Of a DNA stretch of 64,000 bases, positions 9,669-54,286 are shown piece by piece. A program made the translations under genes and the position numbers. The stretch comes from Escherichia phage vB_Eco_mar003J3: the sequence record NC_048203.1. The stretch is one strand, 5' to 3'. Every line of letters starts with the position of its first letter. Position 1 is the first letter of the stretch. The notes beneath the pieces are model-generated. The model was not told the origin of the DNA. It worked only from the letters and a program-made list of their open reading frames with translations, and searched no databases.

Positions 9669-9698
9669 AATAGCCTCGTCTCATCAATTTAAAAATAT

Positions 9699-9727
9699 AT
9701 TATACAGAAAACTAAACTAATTAGCAA
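9699..9727 (-). promoter_or_regulatory. T5-type early promoter (TTGCTA, 17 bp, TATAAT)
   Basis: Minus-strand reading. Confidence 0.55.
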
Positions 9728-10111
9728 ATACATTTTTAAATTGAGAGACTAGTAAACCGATAAACAGCCTAGAGGCGCCACAGGCCATATCTTATGAGCC
9801 ATGTACCTTTGATCTAGGGTTTGAATCATCAACGAATACTTTGCATCTTTTAGCTTTAGAAGGTTAGAAGTTTGAGTGCTTTTAACTTTTCAGCTTTCAT
9901 ACTTGAGCGTTGATCTTTGAAGTTGTGTTGGTACTACCAACGACCTTTTGTTTTTACGTGTCAGATTAAATGTCCGATGTAATAAACATAATCTCCAATA
10001 GATTATACTTTATAGTATGGTCAGCGGTCTTATTTAACCTCGTATTTCAACCGCTGCTGCGAGGTAAGATGCTTGGGCTTTCGTCTACCGATTTACTAGT
10101 CTTTTAAATTA

Positions 10112-11760: not shown

Positions 11761-11790
11761 AATTATGTCCTTTATTGTTGTAGAAAACTA

Positions 11791-12003
11791 TTAAAGAGCT
11801 GTCTCTTTAATAGACTCCCACTGTTTGGGGTCTTTCAGAGGAAGTTCCTCTTCTTCAAACAGGTCTGTTTCATTTTCACTAACATCCCAGTTTTCTTCCA
11901 TGATTTCTTCTAGAAGCTCATGTTTAGAAAGACGAGTGTAGTCTCTAGCAGACTTGTGAGTGCTAGCACGGTTAAAATCATTCTTTGCAACGAAGTTACG
12001 CAT
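11791..12003 (-). CDS. small acidic protein (70 aa)
   Basis: ORF; E/D-rich C-terminus. Confidence 0.45.
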   Translation of the reverse strand: MRNFVAKNDFNRASTHKSARDYTRLSKHELLEEIMEENWDVSENETDLFEEEELPLKDPKQWESIKETAL

Positions 12004-12018
12004 AGTTTCTCCAAATAA

Positions 12019-12036
12019 GAGGGGCTTTCGCCCCCT
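12019..12036 (-). terminator. GGGGC-tttc-GCCCC hairpin terminator
   Basis: Followed on minus strand by CUUAUUUGG; sits 15 nt upstream of next start. Confidence 0.5.
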
Positions 12037-12044
12037 GATTTAAA

Positions 12045-12260
12045 TTACTTGCCCAGCAGTTTAAGGATATTTTCCTTAATAGTTTGAGCAGATTTTTCAC
12101 TCTTATTGGTTTCAGCCAGTTTCAGAGCGAGTTCTTCCTGCTGTTTCTGAATATCAGCAGCAGTTTTCTGGTCAGCTTCAATACGAGCTTGAAGTTCATC
12201 AGTAATAGTGGTAAAGGAAGCAACGATTTCAGTAACGGAACGTGGTTTCTTAGAGAACAT
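12045..12260 (-). CDS. small coiled-coil protein (71 aa)
   Basis: ORF only. Confidence 0.45.
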   Translation of the reverse strand: MFSKKPRSVTEIVASFTTITDELQARIEADQKTAADIQKQQEELALKLAETNKSEKSAQTIKENILKLLGK

Positions 12261-12297
12261 AAAAATATCCTTGATTAGTCAGAGAAAGAGTTAGTGT

Positions 12298-22666: not shown

Positions 22667-22730
22667 TCCTATAGTGTACTTCGCTAACAGAGGATCAACA
22701 AAAAGATCTTGTTTATCAACTTACAAATAT

Positions 22731-22759
22731 ATTATACCAATATCTACAGTAAAAAGCAA
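22731..22759 (-). promoter_or_regulatory. T5-type early promoter (TTGCTT, 17 bp, TATAAT)
   Basis: Minus-strand reading; divergent from the nrdD promoter. Confidence 0.6.
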
Positions 22760-22959
22760 CTACAATTTTAAATAAGCCTATGACATTGCAGTTAAATAAA
22801 AAATTTGCTTGCTTATAGAGGGAGATGTATGATACTAGATAATCATTTTATATCGCGTACATGGGCGCGGGATTATAGTATAAAATAGGGTAAGGTGTCA
22901 ACAACAATTTTCCAAAAATTGAGCCAGATCAAGTTACTTAGCTCTTTAGAAAATTTATA

Positions 22960-22988
22960 TTGACATACGCCTTCAAATGAGCTATAAT
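22960..22988 (+). promoter_or_regulatory. consensus sigma70 promoter (TTGACA, 17 bp, TATAAT) for nrdD
   Basis: Perfect hexamers; SD GAAGGAG precedes ATG at 23018. Confidence 0.7.
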
Positions 22989-23017
22989 AGTAGTCTTAGT
23001 TAGAGAAGGAGAATATA

Positions 23018-27879: not shown

Positions 27880-28308
27880 ATGTTCAATAATATTTTCATG
27901 AAAGAGGTAAATCCTATGCTTCTCAACTTCTGGCGCTCTCTCCCTAATGGTATGTATAATGAAACCATCAATCTGCTCAAGATTTGGTGTGAGAATAACG
28001 ATATCTTCTTATCCTTTAAAGGCCCGCTAGAGGAAGCTCCGTGTATTGGAGTTAGCGTGGATTTAGGGGAGGGAGTAGAAGAGATTGTAGACTGGAAAGA
28101 ACTCGATGAAATGGGTCTGGTTTTTGCCTTGAATCATAAGCTGTTTATGCCTGCAAATCACCGTCTTATTGTAAATTATCGCACTGGTGAAGCTCCTGCT
28201 TTCCAGGTAAATGAACGTGAGGGCTGGTCATATTCGCCCGAGGAAGTAAATGAGGGGATTCAGAAACTTCGTCGTTTCGGGTATATGATCCCAGGTTTAA
28301 CTGCTTAA
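27880..28308 (+). CDS. hypothetical protein, paralog A of tandem pair
   Basis: 142 aa; shares W.ELDEMGLVFALN...GYMIPGL with next ORF. Confidence 0.5.
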   Translation: MFNNIFMKEVNPMLLNFWRSLPNGMYNETINLLKIWCENNDIFLSFKGPLEEAPCIGVSVDLGEGVEEIVDWKELDEMGLVFALNHKLFMPANHRLIVNYRTGEAPAFQVNEREGWSYSPEEVNEGIQKLRRFGYMIPGLTA

Positions 28309-28317
28309 GGAGGCAGA

Positions 28318-28713
28318 ATGGAACAAGTATTTTGGCGTCAGATAGATCCTAGTTTGGTAGAGCGTGCTGAGGGGCTCCTTGCACGTTGGTTGGGGGTTGA
28401 CAAGGTTAGTGTAACATTTCCGTTTACTTCTGTAACAGACCCTAGTGTAGGTGTCTTTGTGGACGAAGGTGAAGATGATGGTTGGGAAGCTGACTGGAAT
28501 GAATTGTCCAGCATGGGCTTGATTGTTGCCCTCAACTTCTCTATATTCCATCCACGTGGCTTAGCCATTACACGTGACCCCGAAACTGGTGAATCCCCTT
28601 ATCTTTTGCAAGTAGAAGATGATATTTGGGAGTACACCGAAGATATTCTCGAAGAAGCTAAAACTCAATTAGATAGTGTTGGGATCTATGTACCAGGCCT
28701 AAATGATGATTGA
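28318..28713 (+). CDS. hypothetical protein, paralog B of tandem pair
   Basis: 131 aa; W.ELSSMGLIVALN...GIYVPGL. Confidence 0.5.
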   Translation: MEQVFWRQIDPSLVERAEGLLARWLGVDKVSVTFPFTSVTDPSVGVFVDEGEDDGWEADWNELSSMGLIVALNFSIFHPRGLAITRDPETGESPYLLQVEDDIWEYTEDILEEAKTQLDSVGIYVPGLNDD

Positions 28714-28833: not shown

Positions 28834-28852
28834 ATATGTATTGGAGGTGAGG

Positions 28853-29305
28853 ATGTCATTCACACAGCAGGAACTTTTAGATAACTTCCGATATGAAGAT
28901 GGTAAGTTATTTAGAACTACAGGAAGAAATGCAGGGAAAGAATGTTGTGTTTCTACGGGTAACGGATATTATCGTATATCTCTAGGGAATAGGACTATGC
29001 TTCGGCATAGAGCAATATTTTTAATGCATCATGGATACTTACCTGATTTAGTAGATCATGTGAATACTATAAAAGGCGATGATCGTATTGAAAATCTTAG
29101 AGAGCAGACAGTATCCGGTAATCTAAGAAATATCAAATATAAGAAAGGAATGCATGTTTACCCTTCTGGTAGTAAGAACTGGCAAGTAGTATTTACTATT
29201 AATCGTAAACGAGTAGTTAAAGGAACATATGATAACTATGAAGTTGCATGTTCTATGGCCAAGATGTTTAGAGGTCAATTATACGGTAGAGAATCAATCC
29301 AGTAA
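28853..29305 (+). CDS. HNH homing endonuclease
   Basis: Start at MSFTQQ (SD GGAGGTGAGG); LVDHVNTIKGDDRIENLR core. Confidence 0.7.
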   Translation: MSFTQQELLDNFRYEDGKLFRTTGRNAGKECCVSTGNGYYRISLGNRTMLRHRAIFLMHHGYLPDLVDHVNTIKGDDRIENLREQTVSGNLRNIKYKKGMHVYPSGSKNWQVVFTINRKRVVKGTYDNYEVACSMAKMFRGQLYGRESIQ

Positions 29306-29313
29306 AATTTCAT

Positions 29314-29343
29314 TTGCAAGGGAGTATTATTTTATAGTATAAT
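29314..29343 (+). promoter_or_regulatory. sigma70-like promoter (TTGCAA, 18 bp, TATAAT)
   Basis: Heads a roughly 490-nt ORF-free leader. Confidence 0.45.
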
Positions 29344-29837
29344 ATTCCCATAAATGAGAGACATTAGTAAAAATTGATTTTGCTAATTTTTCTTGTTTAC
29401 AATCCGCAATACGGAACAGTTAGGCTGCCCCATTAAGGGTTGTTTTAACTATTACTAGTGTTTATACTGCATTAGTTAATTATCAATTAAGTGATCTGCG
29501 TACCCTGAATTCGGAAAGGTAAATCCAAACCGTGCATATTTAGCTCGTTATATAGGCAGAGCTTTATATGGGGGTGCGAACGAAAAGAGCAGCGAATGGT
29601 GACACGTCCAGTAGCCACCTACCAATAGGATAGTGAGGGCAATCAGAATCGGCTTAGCGGCCAATGACCTAGGTTCTGATCTGGATAAGAGTTAAGAGAG
29701 CGCAGCACTGAGGTATGATAACTTATTCATACTGCTTGATGATTATTAATGTTTGTGTAAATGGTAGTAATAGTTGTTCTATTCTTTTGAATAGTCCTAA
29801 AGAAAGATATCCGAATAACCAACATAGGAGTATTGTT

Positions 29838-32627
29838 GTGTTCTCAATCCTACAAGGTCACGCAGGATTTTCCAGAGATAAAGCCACTGGCATCTGGAAA
29901 GAGATCAAAGTGGAAGATTACACCTTTGCAAAGCGATTCTCTAAAGAGCATCCAGAAGGTAAACCAGCTTCCATGCCCTTCAAATTTGACGTACTTGAAG
30001 AACTTGACCCGCAAAACCTTGCTGAAATGTTACCTATCATGCGTCGTCTTACCAAAGACCCGCATATTGTAGCTATTCGTGGTAAATGTCTAGCTCCAAA
30101 AGATAATGTGCGTCGTACCAGAGGAAACTTTAACGTATCCAATCCTAGTCATATTATCGCTATGGACGTGGATGGTATTGTAGATACTGGTGGCTATGAC
30201 AAGTTTAATCTTGTTGGCATGGCACGTCATATTATTAAGATGTTGAATAGTATTAGTGAGGATATGTTTCCTCTTGATGCAGGGTTTATTGCTCATGCAT
30301 CGTCTTCGGCTGGATTAAAACCAGGTATCCGAATGCACTTAATGCTAGAATCTAATGTCAAGGTAACGCAGGGGCAATTAAAATTCTTATTTACATCCAT
30401 CAATGACAGTAGTAAGCAAAAGTATGGCTTTGATATTGCTGACTTAGCTTATTATTCTTCTGTTCAGCTTCACTATTTCGCAGATCCCTTATTTGATGAT
30501 GGTATAGTCGATCCGTTTAAAGCGGAGAATAAACCACGTCTTGTGTATGTTAAGGGTTCGAAAGTGAATCTACCCAATAACCTAGTTGACTTTGAAACAA
30601 CTAGAGGTGAGTTTAAAGAAGAATTCTACTCCTTACTTGACCAAATTAAAGGCAAGAAGGCTGCATCTGATAAAGTGGAAGAAACCATCAGCGAACTAGA
30701 AGAAGCTGAGGATGGGGTGTACCTGCGTATTATCCCAAAACTTTATCACAGAGCGTTAGAAGATGGTGTTGACTTTACGTGGTTAGAACGTGAGATTAAA
30801 CCAGCTTTATCTGAATATATTGCAACTAAAGATAATAGTCGTAATATTCAAGATTACTTTAATAACGGTCGTAAGCAGGCTCTCAAAGCCTTTGTAAATA
30901 ACTCCAAACGTGAGATTCCACCCAACTTAAAAGGTGTACCATTAAAACGTCTGGACACAGATTCTCCACCAGAAGTTCCATACCTGAAAATTAACATTGT
31001 ACCACCAAAAGGACATTTAACATTTGTTAAGGCAAGTCTTGGTACGGGTAAAACTACAGCAGTAACTAAGTGGCTAGATGCAGGTGTTCTTCCAGGGAAC
31101 TTTATTGCAATCACAAATACTAGGGCACTTGTATCTTCTAACGCGAAGAAATTCGGTGCTGGCCAGTATGATAAGTCAGTTGATATGCTGAACTTCAAAC
31201 GTGGTGCTATTGATCGTATGTCTTCAACTATTCACTCTATCCATAAGTTCAAGAGCTTTGTGGGTCAGATTGATACGATCTTTATTGATGAATGTGACGC
31301 AGTAATGAATGATCTGTTATTCGCTCCTGTTGTTAAAAACCGTCGTGAATGTATTCAGGTTCTTCGTGATATCCTTATTACTGCTAAAACTGTTATCTTA
31401 TCTGATGGTGATATCAGTGCAGAAACGATTGAAGCCTATGGTTCTTTGATTGATTTTGATAAACCAGTTGCATTCTATAATCATCACCGTAAAATGCTGG
31501 CGAAAGCTCACGCTTATGAATTCCCTGACGAATCCAGTATTTGGGTTGCACTTCAAACATCTCTAGAGATGGGTGAGAAGTCAATCCTAGTATCTGACTG
31601 TGGACCAGATGAACTGAATGAAAAGGGAATGGCGTTACGTCGTAATACTGGTGCGTTAGTTAAAGAAATTCACTCAAACTCTACGTCTGATATAGATATC
31701 AGACGTATTCTGGATTATACAACTAATGAGCTAATTGATCAACAGATTGATTGTTTGTTATGTAGTCCATCTGTAACTAGTGGTGTTGACTTTAACTATT
31801 TTGATAACGTATTCGTAATCACTAGAACCTCAAACCAAGCGCCAAACATGCGTTTTCAAGCAATCAGGCGCGACCGTGGTGCTCAGAACATTTATTATTT
31901 TATTGATAAATCTACGAGTGGATTCTCTGCGGGTTCCGAGCAATATAATATTGACGAGGGTTGGATTGAGTTAGCTCAGCAACTGTACGCACGCCGTCGT
32001 GAGCTGGAATCTAGAAACTATACCAGTACTTTGCGTTATTATCTTCTCGATCAAGGTGCAACTATTGATATCTTCAGTGAAAGCTGGGGGACTATCGAAG
32101 GTGCAGGCAAAGAGTATACAGAAGAGCGAATCAAAGCTATTCTGCACTCAACTCCTGAATATTGCGCACCACGTCATGCAGATGCCTATGAAGCCAAGTT
32201 ACTTCTGGTTCGCTATTATCATCTGGATTCTATTAAAGATGTAACAGTGGAACACGTTGAACAGTATATCAAGGATAAACCGAATGATCGAGCTGCATTT
32301 TTCCATAAGATGCACGAGATGTTCTGGGAAGATATTAAAAAGTGTTCAAACGTAACAATCAAACCGTTTATCGAAGCTCTTAAGAATAAGAAGAAAGATT
32401 TCTTCCTTAAGACAGGTCAGAGCGCTAACCCAAAGTATGCTCGTATGTATCTTGGCATGATGGGTATCGGTAAAGATCTGGATACGGAAAAGATTGTGGA
32501 CTGGTACAGAACTTACTGTAAGATCGAATGTATGCCGATTCCAGTTAAGTTTATGACAGATGAAGAACGTCAGATGCATGAGGAAGCTCTTGCTGAATTG
32601 GGAGCTAGAAATGACAGTGAAGAATAA
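29838..32627 (+). CDS. P-loop NTPase, putative replication origin-binding / SF2 helicase-like protein
   Basis: Central Walker A GTGKTTAVT, DE-type Walker B FIDECDAV; start set to GTG after GGAG; track start 29715 rejected. Confidence 0.5.
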   Translation: MFSILQGHAGFSRDKATGIWKEIKVEDYTFAKRFSKEHPEGKPASMPFKFDVLEELDPQNLAEMLPIMRRLTKDPHIVAIRGKCLAPKDNVRRTRGNFNVSNPSHIIAMDVDGIVDTGGYDKFNLVGMARHIIKMLNSISEDMFPLDAGFIAHASSSAGLKPGIRMHLMLESNVKVTQGQLKFLFTSINDSSKQKYGFDIADLAYYSSVQLHYFADPLFDDGIVDPFKAENKPRLVYVKGSKVNLPNNLVDFETTRGEFKEEFYSLLDQIKGKKAASDKVEETISELEEAEDGVYLRIIPKLYHRALEDGVDFTWLEREIKPALSEYIATKDNSRNIQDYFNNGRKQALKAFVNNSKREIPPNLKGVPLKRLDTDSPPEVPYLKINIVPPKGHLTFVKASLGTGKTTAVTKWLDAGVLPGNFIAITNTRALVSSNAKKFGAGQYDKSVDMLNFKRGAIDRMSSTIHSIHKFKSFVGQIDTIFIDECDAVMNDLLFAPVVKNRRECIQVLRDILITAKTVILSDGDISAETIEAYGSLIDFDKPVAFYNHHRKMLAKAHAYEFPDESSIWVALQTSLEMGEKSILVSDCGPDELNEKGMALRRNTGALVKEIHSNSTSDIDIRRILDYTTNELIDQQIDCLLCSPSVTSGVDFNYFDNVFVITRTSNQAPNMRFQAIRRDRGAQNIYYFIDKSTSGFSAGSEQYNIDEGWIELAQQLYARRRELESRNYTSTLRYYLLDQGATIDIFSESWGTIEGAGKEYTEERIKAILHSTPEYCAPRHADAYEAKLLLVRYYHLDSIKDVTVEHVEQYIKDKPNDRAAFFHKMHEMFWEDIKKCSNVTIKPFIEALKNKKKDFFLKTGQSANPKYARMYLGMMGIGKDLDTEKIVDWYRTYCKIECMPIPVKFMTDEERQMHEEALAELGARNDSEE

Positions 32628-53888: not shown

Positions 53889-54286
53889 AAGATTTCCTAA
53901 TAAGATTAGAATTACTCCCTAATCTCTTGTAAACTTTTAGAGTAAAGTGCGAGTCCCTTCGCACAATAGGTTATTATGGAGTATTTTTTATTTTACTCAC
54001 TTCTGTTTCAAGTGTGGACACACAGTTAACTAAAGCTAGAGCTTGATTTACTTCCGTAAGAAGTTTCTTAAGAGTAGTAATCCCTCCCTTTAAGCTATCA
54101 ATTTCTTTTGCTTACTGGTCATTTTCATCCCTTAGCTGAAGAAGAGCTTCATGGTGTAGTACTCTGTCTTTTCATCGAACATGATGTTGTCCGCATATTG
54201 CCGAGTTTGATCGGACTGTATACTCACAACATCCGCGCGGATGTAAAAACCTGCAACAGCATGGTTTAGGAGGAATCCAAATGGTG

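What the first reader, a model, noticed from the sequence alone, without database searches (positions are those of the whole stretch)
29314..29837. Promoter followed by a roughly 490-nt ORF-free leader upstream of the origin-binding helicase-like gene
A TTGCAA-18-TATAAT promoter at 29314-29343 is followed by about 490 nt with no ORF before the GTG start at 29838, far longer than other 5' UTRs here. The stretch mixes AT-rich and GC-rich blocks. Because it lies directly upstream of the putative origin-binding protein, it could be a replication origin, a structured regulatory RNA, or both.
Basis: inference. Interest (0 to 1): 0.45.

Follow-up and report, generated by a model that had tools for sequence, protein, structure and literature searches.

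The report
Large structured RNA leader before T5 helicase gene
The ~490-base gap before the replication helicase gene of this T5-like phage is not empty spacer: it is a promoter-driven leader that folds into a large, pseudoknotted RNA conserved across T5-like phages, matches no described RNA family, and has an unknown function.

Summary
The window is a T5-like phage (Demerecviridae). TTGCAA-N18-TATAAT (29314-29343) lies 495 nt upstream of the GTG start (29838) of the D2 "origin-binding" helicase gene, with no conserved ORF between. The same promoter-plus-leader (477-502 nt, longer with an optional insert) occurs in T5 itself and in about 440 phage records.

Comparative analysis shows a structured RNA on the + strand:
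- a 5' hairpin;
- a conserved motif;
- a 34-44 bp closing stem (P1: 29446-86/29736-76);
- a ~240-nt multi-helix core holding the conserved hairpin GGCUUAGCGGCC and a loop-bulge pseudoknot.

Within the window's sequence type, 12 of 110 predicted pairs carry compensatory double changes, against 0-3 in equal-sized coding controls. Across six lineages whose sequences cannot be aligned, helix strands pair 98% with their own partner and 62% with another lineage's partner.

Nothing in Rfam 15 matches. There are no iterons, no terminator and no consistent masking of the ribosome-binding site.

Most likely it is a cis-acting 5' leader RNA of the D2 mRNA, acting as a processing or protein-binding platform. 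An origin-associated RNA or a released trans-acting RNA remain open. Function is inferred, not shown.

The parts
29314..29343 (+). Sigma-70 early promoter: -35 TTGCAA (29314-19), 18-nt spacer, -10 TATAAT (29338-43). The start site is inferred at about 29350.
   Evidence: Equivalent promoters lie at the same place in all relatives and are annotated in T5 and AKFV33. Here 29306-29354 is a divergent allele that arrived with the upstream HNH cassette.
29356..29394 (+). H0: the 5'-proximal hairpin of the transcript (GAGAGACAUUAGUAAAAAU / AUUUUGCUAAUUUUUCUU).
   Evidence: Present in the MFE folds of all 12 relatives. The arms covary by eye in L045, My1 and Sugarland (sequences). The inner part is annotated 'terminator' in the phage Shivani record.
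29400..29442 (+). Local stem CAAUCC/GGGUUG enclosing the conserved motif ACGGAACAGUUAGGCUGCCCC (29411-31).
   Evidence: 97% identical between types A and B. The motif ACAGUYNGGCUGC recurs about 75 nt after the -10 element in Sugarland, My1 and L045.
29446..29486 (+). P1, 5' strand: a long AU-rich closing stem.
   Evidence: 38 intermolecular bp with 29736-76, 7 of them G.U. It is 34-44 bp in five lineages with unrelated sequences and appears in the RNAalifold consensus.
29736..29776 (+). P1, 3' strand.
29496..29501 (+). P2, 5' strand: CUGCGU, which pairs with GCGCAG at 29700-05.
   Evidence: Variants are CUGUGU/GCACAG (T5), CUACAC/GUGUAG (DT57C, L045, My1), CUAGAA/UUCUAG (Sugarland) and CUGUAU/GUACAG (L187). 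4 of 6 columns are compensatory.
29700..29705 (+). P2, 3' strand: GCGCAG.
29513..29526 (+). P3a hairpin: GGA-AAGGUAAA-UCC.
   Evidence: Analogous hairpins with purine-rich loops occur in other lineages, judged by eye from the sequences.
29529..29600 (+). Extended hairpin carrying P4 (29542-46/29559-63) and loop L4 (29547-58).
   Evidence: Helix 6 has 2 compensatory pairs. P4 covaries in 5 of 7 columns across lineages.
29553..29556 (+). Pseudoknot, 5' partner: UAGG in loop L4.
   Evidence: It pairs with CCUA at 29668-71. The other lineages have (U)GAGG/CCUC(A), UUAAGG/CCUUAA, UUAAGG/CCUUAG, CAUGU/ACAUG and UAGAG/CUCUA at the same two places. 5 of 6 columns are compensatory.
29668..29671 (+). 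Pseudoknot, 3' partner: CCUA in the 3' bulge of P7.
29606..29686 (+). Module P6 (29606-11/29681-86), hairpin 29614-40, P7 (29642-50/29672-80) and P8 hairpin GGCU-UAGC-GGCC (29651-62).
   Evidence: Helices 9-12 have 6 compensatory pairs. Covariance model R2, built from type A only, finds the equivalent place in type B (E 5e-4 and 5e-3) and Sugarland (E 0.03), and it is the top hit in L045. GCUUAGCGG lies about 310 nt after the -10 element in all lineages.
29712..29733 (+). P9 hairpin between the P2 3' strand and the P1 3' strand.
   Evidence: Helix 13 has 2 compensatory pairs. A hairpin sits at the same place in all lineages. In types other than A its loop is conserved (AAGUUGCCACC).
29779..29794 (+). 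3' hairpin CUAUUC-UUUU-GAAUAG, inside a highly conserved block (29764-29806).
   Evidence: 90% identical between types A and B, while the core is 25-55% identical.
29826..29840 (+). Shine-Dalgarno AGGAG (29826-30) and GTG start (29838-40) of the D2 helicase gene (29838-32627).
   Evidence: The start is conserved in all relatives.

Best explanation
The interval is the promoter and 5' leader of the mRNA for the D2 replication helicase of a T5-like phage.

What happens, as far as can be said:
1. Host RNA polymerase starts at about 29350.
2. The first ~490 nt fold into an autonomous, ornate RNA: a 5' hairpin (H0), a conserved motif, and a ~340-nt domain closed by a 38-bp stem (P1). The pseudoknotted core of that domain contains the invariant hairpin GGCUUAGCGGCC.
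3. There is no terminator, so every D2 message carries this domain.

The domain does not mask the ribosome-binding site in any consistent way. The most likely role is therefore a cis-acting platform that sets D2 output after transcription. Two routes are plausible: endonucleolytic processing at the long P1 duplex, which looks like an RNase III substrate, or binding of a protein such as D2 itself or a host factor.

Shown: the promoter motif and its conservation, the absence of coding capacity, the RNA secondary structure with covariation, the strand bias, and the distribution across the family. Inferred: transcription, processing and the regulatory role.

My confidence is about 0.9 that it is a conserved structured RNA, and about 0.4-0.45 that its main role is cis control of D2 expression.
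For: Identity. The window is a T5-like phage. The gap is conserved in 440 phage records and in T5 itself, where a terminator, a promoter and a 470-nt gap precede T5.108.

Type A covariation.
- 110 predicted pairs, 99.5% of cells paired, against 32-50% when partners are slid.
- 12 pairs with double changes, against 5.7 +/- 1.1 in shuffles (0 of 500 reach the observed value).
- The same phages over four equal-sized D2 coding segments give 0-3 compensatory pairs and alifold energies of -42 to -62, against -93.5 kcal/mol for the leader.

Type B. 109 pairs, 6 of them compensatory.

Across six lineages. 231 of 236 helix positions are canonical with their own partner strand, against 62% with another lineage's partner. 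Compensatory columns: P2 4/6, P3 4/5, P4 5/7, pseudoknot 5/6, P5 4/5, P7 6/6, P9 5/7.

Geometry. P1 is 34-44 bp in five lineages. The core lies at +147-157 to +378-393 of a 477-502-nt leader.

Covariance models.
- R1, built without L187, finds L187 at E 1.8e-14.
- R2, built from type A only, finds types B and Sugarland at the homologous spot.

Strand. The + strand folds 11-30 kcal/mol better than the - strand in all six lineages.

Conservation. The leader is 93-97% identical between window and T5, against about 85% for the adjacent coding DNA.

No terminator-like site was found between the RNA and D2. No conserved ORF was found.
Against: - No transcript, processing or phenotype data exist in the searchable literature.
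- The cross-lineage alignment was curated by hand with pairing in mind, so its pair counts are biased upward. Only six independent lineages are available, and sequences within a type are close relatives.
- The 5' half of the core differs between types. R1 does not detect type A, Sugarland, L049 or Kamaji. 'Same fold' therefore holds only for P1, P2, P4 with the pseudoknot, P6-P8 and P9.
- No conserved helix sequesters the ribosome-binding site, so a classical riboswitch-like expression platform is not evident.
- RNase III cleavage is only inferred from the length of the duplex.
- Such elaborate tertiary structure is more than simple processing would need, which favours the rival explanations.
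Confidence: 0.45

Rival explanations
1. Origin-associated RNA. The promoter and leader are part of the phage's primary replication origin. The transcript, folded in a specific way like ColE1 RNA II, forms an R-loop or primer, or recruits D2. The AT-rich P1 arms double as DNA unwinding elements.
For: - The locus lies directly upstream of the candidate initiator helicase in every family member.
- In T5 it lies at 48.5% of the genome, and T5 origins were mapped near the centre (10.1101/866236).
- The distance from the promoter to the RNA elements and the leader length are conserved.
- The divergent block between type A and type B phages covers the RNA core plus the first ~1.7 kb of D2, while the flanks are 94-99% identical.
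Against: - No iterons or repeated boxes were found.
- No origin has been mapped at sequence resolution.
- The D2 'origin-binding' label comes from helicase-domain similarity only.
- Selection clearly acts on RNA pairing, including G.U pairs.
- A pseudoknotted tertiary fold is not needed for an R-loop primer.
Confidence: 0.2
2. Trans-acting stable RNA. The 340-nt domain is cut out of the leader at P1 and acts on its own, as an RNP scaffold, a decoy for a host factor or defence system, or a self-assembling ornate RNA like ROOL or GOLLD. Co-transcription with D2 would only provide early timing.
For: - The fold is autonomous, closed by a 34-44 bp duplex.
- A conserved tertiary pseudoknot and an invariant hairpin loop are present.
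- There is no coupling to the ribosome-binding site.
- The core exists as sharply different sequence types that swap between otherwise near-identical phages, as is seen at arms-race loci.
Against: - It is always immediately upstream of D2 and never elsewhere: one copy per genome.
- There is no terminator of its own.
- No similarity to any known ornate RNA was found.
- No stable ~300-nt T5 RNA was found in the literature searched.
Confidence: 0.2
3. DNA-level element only: an origin cruciform, a single-strand initiation signal, or a protein-binding region. The RNA fold would be incidental.
For: Long inverted repeats. Ultra-conserved flanks at 29355-29455 and 29764-29806.
Against: - The arms are 250 nt apart.
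- Many G.U pairs are present, and stability is biased by 11-30 kcal/mol towards the transcribed sense in all lineages.
- Nested helices and a pseudoknot covary.
Confidence: 0.03
4. Non-functional spacer or recombination scar left by the neighbouring HNH homing endonuclease, or a missed small protein gene.
For: The HNH cassette abuts the promoter. Some GenBank records call small CDSs in the gap.
Against: - T5 and most relatives have the same leader without the HNH gene.
- The leader is more conserved than the adjacent coding DNA.
- No ORF is conserved between lineages, and the window has none of 25 codons or more on the + strand.
Confidence: 0.03

Closest known systems
ColE1-type RNA II preprimer
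   Same: A promoter-driven, structured RNA of about 500 nt placed next to replication-initiation functions. Its fold matters rather than its sequence.
   Different: RNA II is not an mRNA leader. It has an antisense partner (RNA I), a mapped RNase H site and an origin. No pseudoknotted core of this kind is known for it. None of these features was found or testable here.
Large ornate phage- or prophage-associated RNAs (ROOL RF03087, GOLLD RF01998; also OLE, HEARO)
   Same: More than 300 nt, many helices, tertiary contacts, phage-borne, function not obvious from context.
   Different: No covariance-model match, even at E <= 10. Those RNAs are stand-alone genes, often near tRNAs. This one is a 5' leader fixed upstream of one gene and confined to Demerecviridae.
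Structured leaders of replication-protein mRNAs (T4 gene 32 and gene 43 operators; IncI-alpha/IncB repZ leader pseudoknot)
   Same: Leader of a replication gene. A long-range loop pairing (pseudoknot) lies within the leader.
   Different: Those elements are tens of nucleotides long and act directly on the ribosome-binding site. Here the domain is ~340 nt, ends about 60 nt before the start codon, and shows no consistent masking of the ribosome-binding site.
RNase III-processed phage leaders (lambda N leader, T7 early mRNA sites)
   Same: A long duplex in an early phage transcript upstream of a gene.
   Different: Known sites are simple hairpins of about 20-30 bp. Here the duplex closes a complex conserved core, and cleavage is untested.
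Herpesvirus oriS/oriL with UL9
   Same: The downstream protein shares the UL9-type SF2 helicase region. GTGCGAACG at 29574-82 equals the core of the UL9 box.
   Different: The box is present only in type A and is probably a chance match. D2 lacks a recognisable UL9 DNA-binding domain. There is no palindromic box-AT-box layout.

Membership tests
Any Rfam 15 family (4227 models, incl. riboswitches, RNase P, tmRNA, 6S, group I/II introns, ROOL, GOLLD, HEARO) | Covariance-model score at or near the gathering threshold | tested here: not met
   The whole window at gathering threshold gave only tRNAs. Region 29200-29950 at E <= 10 gave only noise at 16-19 bits against thresholds of 94-100. Seven related loci at E <= 1 gave nothing in the leader.
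Sigma-70 (T5 early-type) promoter | -35 TTGCnn and -10 TATAAT hexamers spaced 17-18 nt apart, conserved in position | tested here: met
   T5 and AKFV33 annotations. Activity in vivo cannot be tested here.
Riboswitch / cis-regulatory leader | Conserved structured domain in the 5' UTR of the regulated gene | tested here: met
Riboswitch / cis-regulatory leader | Expression platform: an intrinsic terminator, or a helix that sequesters the ribosome-binding site and alternates with the aptamer | tested here: not met
   No terminator-like site was found. Pairing partners of the ribosome-binding site differ in every lineage, and its unpaired probability ranges from 0.02 to 0.65.
Riboswitch / cis-regulatory leader | Specific ligand or protein binding | not testable with these tools
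   Needs in-line probing, ITC, EMSA or CLIP.
Iteron- or DnaA-box-type replication origin | Three or more repeated initiator-binding sites next to an AT-rich unwinding element | tested here: not met
   Only short two-copy direct repeats were found. The AT-rich stretches are the two arms of P1.
Transcript-primed origin (ColE1 RNA II, T7 or T4 R-loop type) | Promoter immediately upstream whose RNA stays hybridised or is processed into a primer at a mapped origin | not testable with these tools
   A promoter and a structured RNA are present. The T5 locus is at 48.5% of the genome and origins are 'near the centre'. No hybrid or origin data exist.
RNase III substrate | Roughly 20 bp or more of near-continuous double-stranded RNA | tested here: met
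   P1 is 38 bp in the window and 34-44 bp in five lineages. Cleavage itself was not tested.
Small protein-coding gene | An ORF conserved in frame and sequence among relatives | tested here: not met
   1-nt indels occur between close relatives.
Group I intron carrying a homing endonuclease | Interrupts a gene and has a P3-P9 catalytic core | tested here: not met
   The element lies between genes. The HNH gene is outside the RNA and is absent in T5. No intron model matches.

The most novel reading that the evidence does not exclude
The leader is a new class of large, pseudoknotted phage RNA that works as a physical partner of the D2 helicase. For example, it could mark or prime the T5 origin as an RNA-protein complex. 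The RNA core type and the N-terminal two-thirds of D2 would then be exchanged together as a specificity module. This would make RNA a defining component of replication initiation in a classical model phage.
Probability: 0.2. Interest if true: 0.85.

Novelty: new variant of a known kind. Interest (0 to 1): 0.68.

Why it matters
T5 has been a model phage for 70 years, yet its origin and the control of its initiator helicase remain undefined. Conserved structured RNAs of 340-480 nt with a pseudoknot are rare, and each one characterised so far has revealed unexpected biology.

This one has a fixed genetic partner (D2), natural sequence variants with the same framework (types A and B, Sugarland, My1, L045, L187), and a tractable host. 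Swap, deletion and compensatory-mutation experiments are therefore straightforward.

The finding also corrects annotation. Several GenBank records place spurious CDSs or extended D2 starts over the RNA.

Tried and rejected
- Rfam at gathering and permissive thresholds: nothing.
- tRNA/tmRNA scan: only the tRNA cluster elsewhere in the window.
- Terminator scan: none.
- Iteron search: none.
- Gapped motif scan of IMG/VR (CTTAGCGG-N40-68-GTTGCCA): far too unspecific. It gave 120+ chance hits and was discarded.
- Sequence-only nhmmer profile: finds the window copy only. It finds no homologue in Vibrio phages, Kamaji or L049.
- MAFFT alignment of all lineages: unreliable outside the anchors, so helices were curated by hand. 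mafft-qinsi was unavailable.
- Metagenome scan with the D2 N-terminal profile: only 15 loci and one new lineage, L187.
- RNase P-like reading of ACAGAAC..CGGCU: rejected, because no RNase P model hit was found and the motif is in the wrong position.
- CsrA-sponge idea: rejected by eye, because GGA motifs are no more frequent than expected. No formal test was run.
- D2 N-terminal domain as a primase-polymerase: no Pfam or PDB support. Only 2 fragment homologues turned up in the big protein index.
- G.U versus A.C counts on the alifold structure: circular, because alifold admits only canonical pairs (see the controls). I replaced this with comparisons of the two strands' folding energies.
- Long-range pairing UUUCUU/AAGAAA ('P0'): dropped, because UUUCUU more simply closes the base of H0.

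Full report
**What the window is.** The 651 nt around the finding match about 440 phage records. All are T5-like siphoviruses of the family Demerecviridae (Tequintavirus and Epseptimavirus), at 80-99.8% identity.

**Gene context.**
- The downstream gene (GTG 29838-32627, 929 aa) is the homologue of T5.108. This is the "replication origin binding protein", studied biochemically as the bipolar D2 helicase (PMC3632103).
- Its only Pfam match is to the helicase part of herpesvirus UL9: residues 391-533 against profile positions 48-197 of 820. The "origin-binding" label is therefore weak evidence that an origin lies nearby.
- The upstream ORF (28850-29305) is an HNH_3 homing endonuclease. It is absent from T5.
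- In T5, T5.107 is followed by an annotated terminator, an annotated promoter and then a 470-nt gap before T5.108.

**Check of the observation.** TTGCAA-N18-TATAAT is at 29314-29343. AGGAG (29826-30) and GTG (29838) follow 495 nt later.
- The + strand has no ORF of 25 codons or more in between.
- The in-frame ATG at 29715 is not credible. Close relatives differ by 1-nt indels inside 29715-29837.
- A promoter-like hexamer pair is not significant by itself: 9 found against 6.9 expected.
- However, a TTGCnn-N17-18-TATAAT element sits 330-620 nt upstream of the D2 start in every enterobacterial Demerecviridae locus I fetched. This includes lineages whose leaders cannot be aligned.
- In the window, 29306-29354 is a divergent allele of this promoter that came with the HNH cassette. 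Phages Shivani and SHSML-45 carry both alleles in tandem.

**Conservation pattern.** I aligned 12 Markadamsvirinae and computed identity profiles. Three zones appear.
- A 5' block (29355-29455) is 97% identical even between the most different phages.
- A central ~310 nt exists in two sequence types that are no more alike than random (25-55%). Type A includes the window, T5, AKFV33 and oselot. Type B includes DT57C, mar004NP2 and fp01. The two types have the same length (344-347 nt).
- A 3' block (29764-29806) is 90% identical.

Between window and T5 the leader is 93-97% identical, while the adjacent D2 coding DNA is about 85%. More distant family members have the same layout: promoter, 477-528-nt leader, D2. 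These are Klebsiella phage Sugarland, Pectobacterium phage My1, IMG/VR contig L045 and metagenome contig L187. Two short motifs recur at fixed distances from the -10 element: ACAGUYNGGCUGC at about +75 and GCUUAGCGG at about +310.

**The structure is RNA and it is conserved.**

Type A (20 sequences, 14 distinct):
- RNAalifold predicts 110 pairs.
- 99.5% of cells are paired, against 32-50% when partners are slid by 1-3 columns.
- 12 pairs show changes on both sides, against 5.7 +/- 1.1 in column shuffles (0 of 500 shuffles reach the observed value).

As a control for relatedness, I ran the same procedure on four equal-sized D2 coding segments from the same phages. It gave 0-3 compensatory pairs and consensus energies of -42 to -62, against -93.5 kcal/mol for the leader. 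Type B gives 109 pairs, 6 of them compensatory.

Both types share one framework:
- a 34-44 bp AU-rich closing stem P1 (window 29446-86/29736-76);
- P2 (29496-501/29700-05);
- a hairpin P4 whose loop L4 is complementary to the 3' bulge of P7, giving the pseudoknot UAGG 29553-56 / CCUA 29668-71;
- P6 enclosing a hairpin;
- P7 capped by the invariant hairpin P8, GGCU-UAGC-GGCC (29651-62);
- P9 (29712-33).

**Across lineages.** I curated these helices by hand in six lineages (A, B, L045, My1, Sugarland, L187).
- Strands form canonical pairs at 231 of 236 positions with their own partner. With the partner strand of another lineage the figure is 62%.
- Compensatory columns number 4/6 in P2, 4/5 in P3, 5/7 in P4, 5/6 in the pseudoknot, 4/5 in P5, 6/6 in P7 and 5/7 in P9.
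- P1 is 34-44 bp in each of the five lineages measured, although its sequences are unrelated. The core occupies +147-157 to +378-393 of the leader in those lineages.

Hand curation is biased, so I added two model-based tests.
- Covariance model R1 covers P3-P5 and was built from type B, L045 and My1. It finds L187, which was not used to build it, at E 1.8e-14 with the expected helices.
- Model R2 covers P6-P8 and was built only from type A. Its top hits are the homologous site in type B (E 5e-4 and 5e-3), in Sugarland (E 0.03) and in L045 (E 0.3).

R1 does not detect type A, Sugarland, L049 or Kamaji. The 5' half of the core therefore differs between lineages, and the claim of a common fold is limited to the framework listed above.

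**Strand.** In all six lineages the + strand domain folds 11-30 kcal/mol better than its reverse complement.
- Window: -106.1 kcal/mol (z -4.35) against -77.6 (z -3.0).
- The alifold consensus energies show the same gap: -93.5 against -64.7 for type A, and -95.8 against -68.1 for type B.

This fits selection on an RNA read in the D2 sense, not a DNA cruciform. I withdrew my earlier G.U versus A.C count as evidence. Alifold admits only canonical pairs, so the count is circular.

**What it is not.**
- No Rfam 15 family matches at any threshold tried.
- There is no tRNA or tmRNA, no terminator-like site, no iterons and no conserved ORF.
- The element occurs once in the window.
- Predicted pairing of the ribosome-binding site differs from lineage to lineage. 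A classical expression platform is therefore not evident.
- Full-text searches found no paper describing this leader.

**How it most likely works.** The RNA is made as the obligatory 5' end of the D2 message. It folds autonomously, ends about 60 nt before the start codon, and is closed by a duplex long enough to be an RNase III substrate.

I therefore favour a cis-acting leader that tunes D2 output after transcription, through processing at P1 or through binding of a protein. My confidence is about 0.45.

Two rivals remain serious, at about 0.2 each.
- An origin-associated RNA. The locus is at 48.5% of the T5 genome, and origins were mapped near the centre. Between T5 and type B Tequintaviruses, the divergent block covers the RNA core plus the first ~1.7 kb of D2, while the flanks are 94-99% identical. 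This is consistent with co-adaptation or with simple linkage.
- A stable RNA released from the leader and acting in trans.

A purely DNA-level element, a hidden gene and junk are each unlikely.

**Verdict.** The "structured RNA" reading is strongly supported. The "origin" reading is neither supported nor excluded. As far as Rfam 15 and the searchable literature show, the element is an undescribed family of large structured RNAs restricted to T5-like phages. Its function awaits experiments.

Noticed in passing
window 28850-29305 (ORF from 28799), junction 29306-29354: An HNH_3 homing endonuclease gene is inserted between the T5.107 homologue and the D2 promoter. T5 lacks it. The cassette brings its own divergent allele of the promoter. 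Shivani and SHSML-45 (L002, L030) keep both promoter alleles and a duplicated first ~50 nt of the leader in tandem.
   Followed up: partly
L011 (DT57C) 660-756, equivalent to an insertion after window 29394: A 97-nt optional insertion lies directly after the H0 hairpin, flanked by a TTTTTCTT repeat. It is present once per genome in 51 phage records, in both type A and type B backgrounds. It may be a small mobile or expansion segment of the leader.
   Followed up: partly
L004 (oselot) 1042-1072: The 9-mer ATTTTGCTA in the 3' arm of H0 is triplicated. The GenBank record annotates it as repeat_region.
   Followed up: no
L009 (Vibrio phage Quinn) 1205-1916; L010 (JSF10) 831-1931: Vibrio-infecting Demerecviridae have ORF-poor gaps of 0.7-1.1 kb upstream of their D2 homologue. 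These gaps are GC-richer than the genome. They show no sequence or covariance-model similarity to the enterobacterial leader; the best hit is L010 1663-1721 at E 0.25. They may hold a different or expanded RNA.
   Followed up: partly
window 29574-29582: GTGCGAACG is the reverse complement of CGTTCGCAC, which I recall as the core of the HSV-1 UL9 recognition box. It is conserved in type A leaders only and absent from type B, so it is probably a chance match.
   Followed up: no
window 29838-31007 (D2 residues 1-390): The N-terminal 390 aa of D2 match no Pfam or PDB family. They contain an IIAMDVDG (DxD-like) motif that is invariant in part across the family, which could mark a nucleotidyl-transferase or primase-type domain. 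The single-sequence AlphaFold model failed (pLDDT 35.6).
   Followed up: partly
L016 (fp01) CDS from 956; L004 (oselot) CDS from 1425; L005 (mar004NP2) CDSs 1058-1240 and 1307-1423: Several GenBank records extend the D2 CDS to an upstream in-frame start or call small hypothetical proteins inside the leader. These calls overlap conserved RNA helices and are not conserved, so they are probably mis-annotations.
   Followed up: partly
L027 (T5) vs L034, relative positions -454 to +1700 from the D2 start: Between T5 and type B Tequintaviruses, a divergent mosaic block covers the RNA core and the first ~1.7 kb of D2 (71-90% identical; 43-65% in the core). The flanking genes and the D2 C-terminal part are 94-99% identical.
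   Followed up: partly
window 9669-10111, 11761-12297, 22667-23017, 53889-54286: These are other stretches of 350-540 nt without an ORF of 75 codons or more. None has an Rfam hit at gathering threshold. I did not examine them further.
   Followed up: no
window 27880-28308 and 28318-28713: Two adjacent ORFs lie just upstream, homologues of T5.106 and T5.107. The second matches DUF7415. Their translations look alike by eye, so they may be paralogues, but the first was not scanned and the two were not compared.
   Followed up: no
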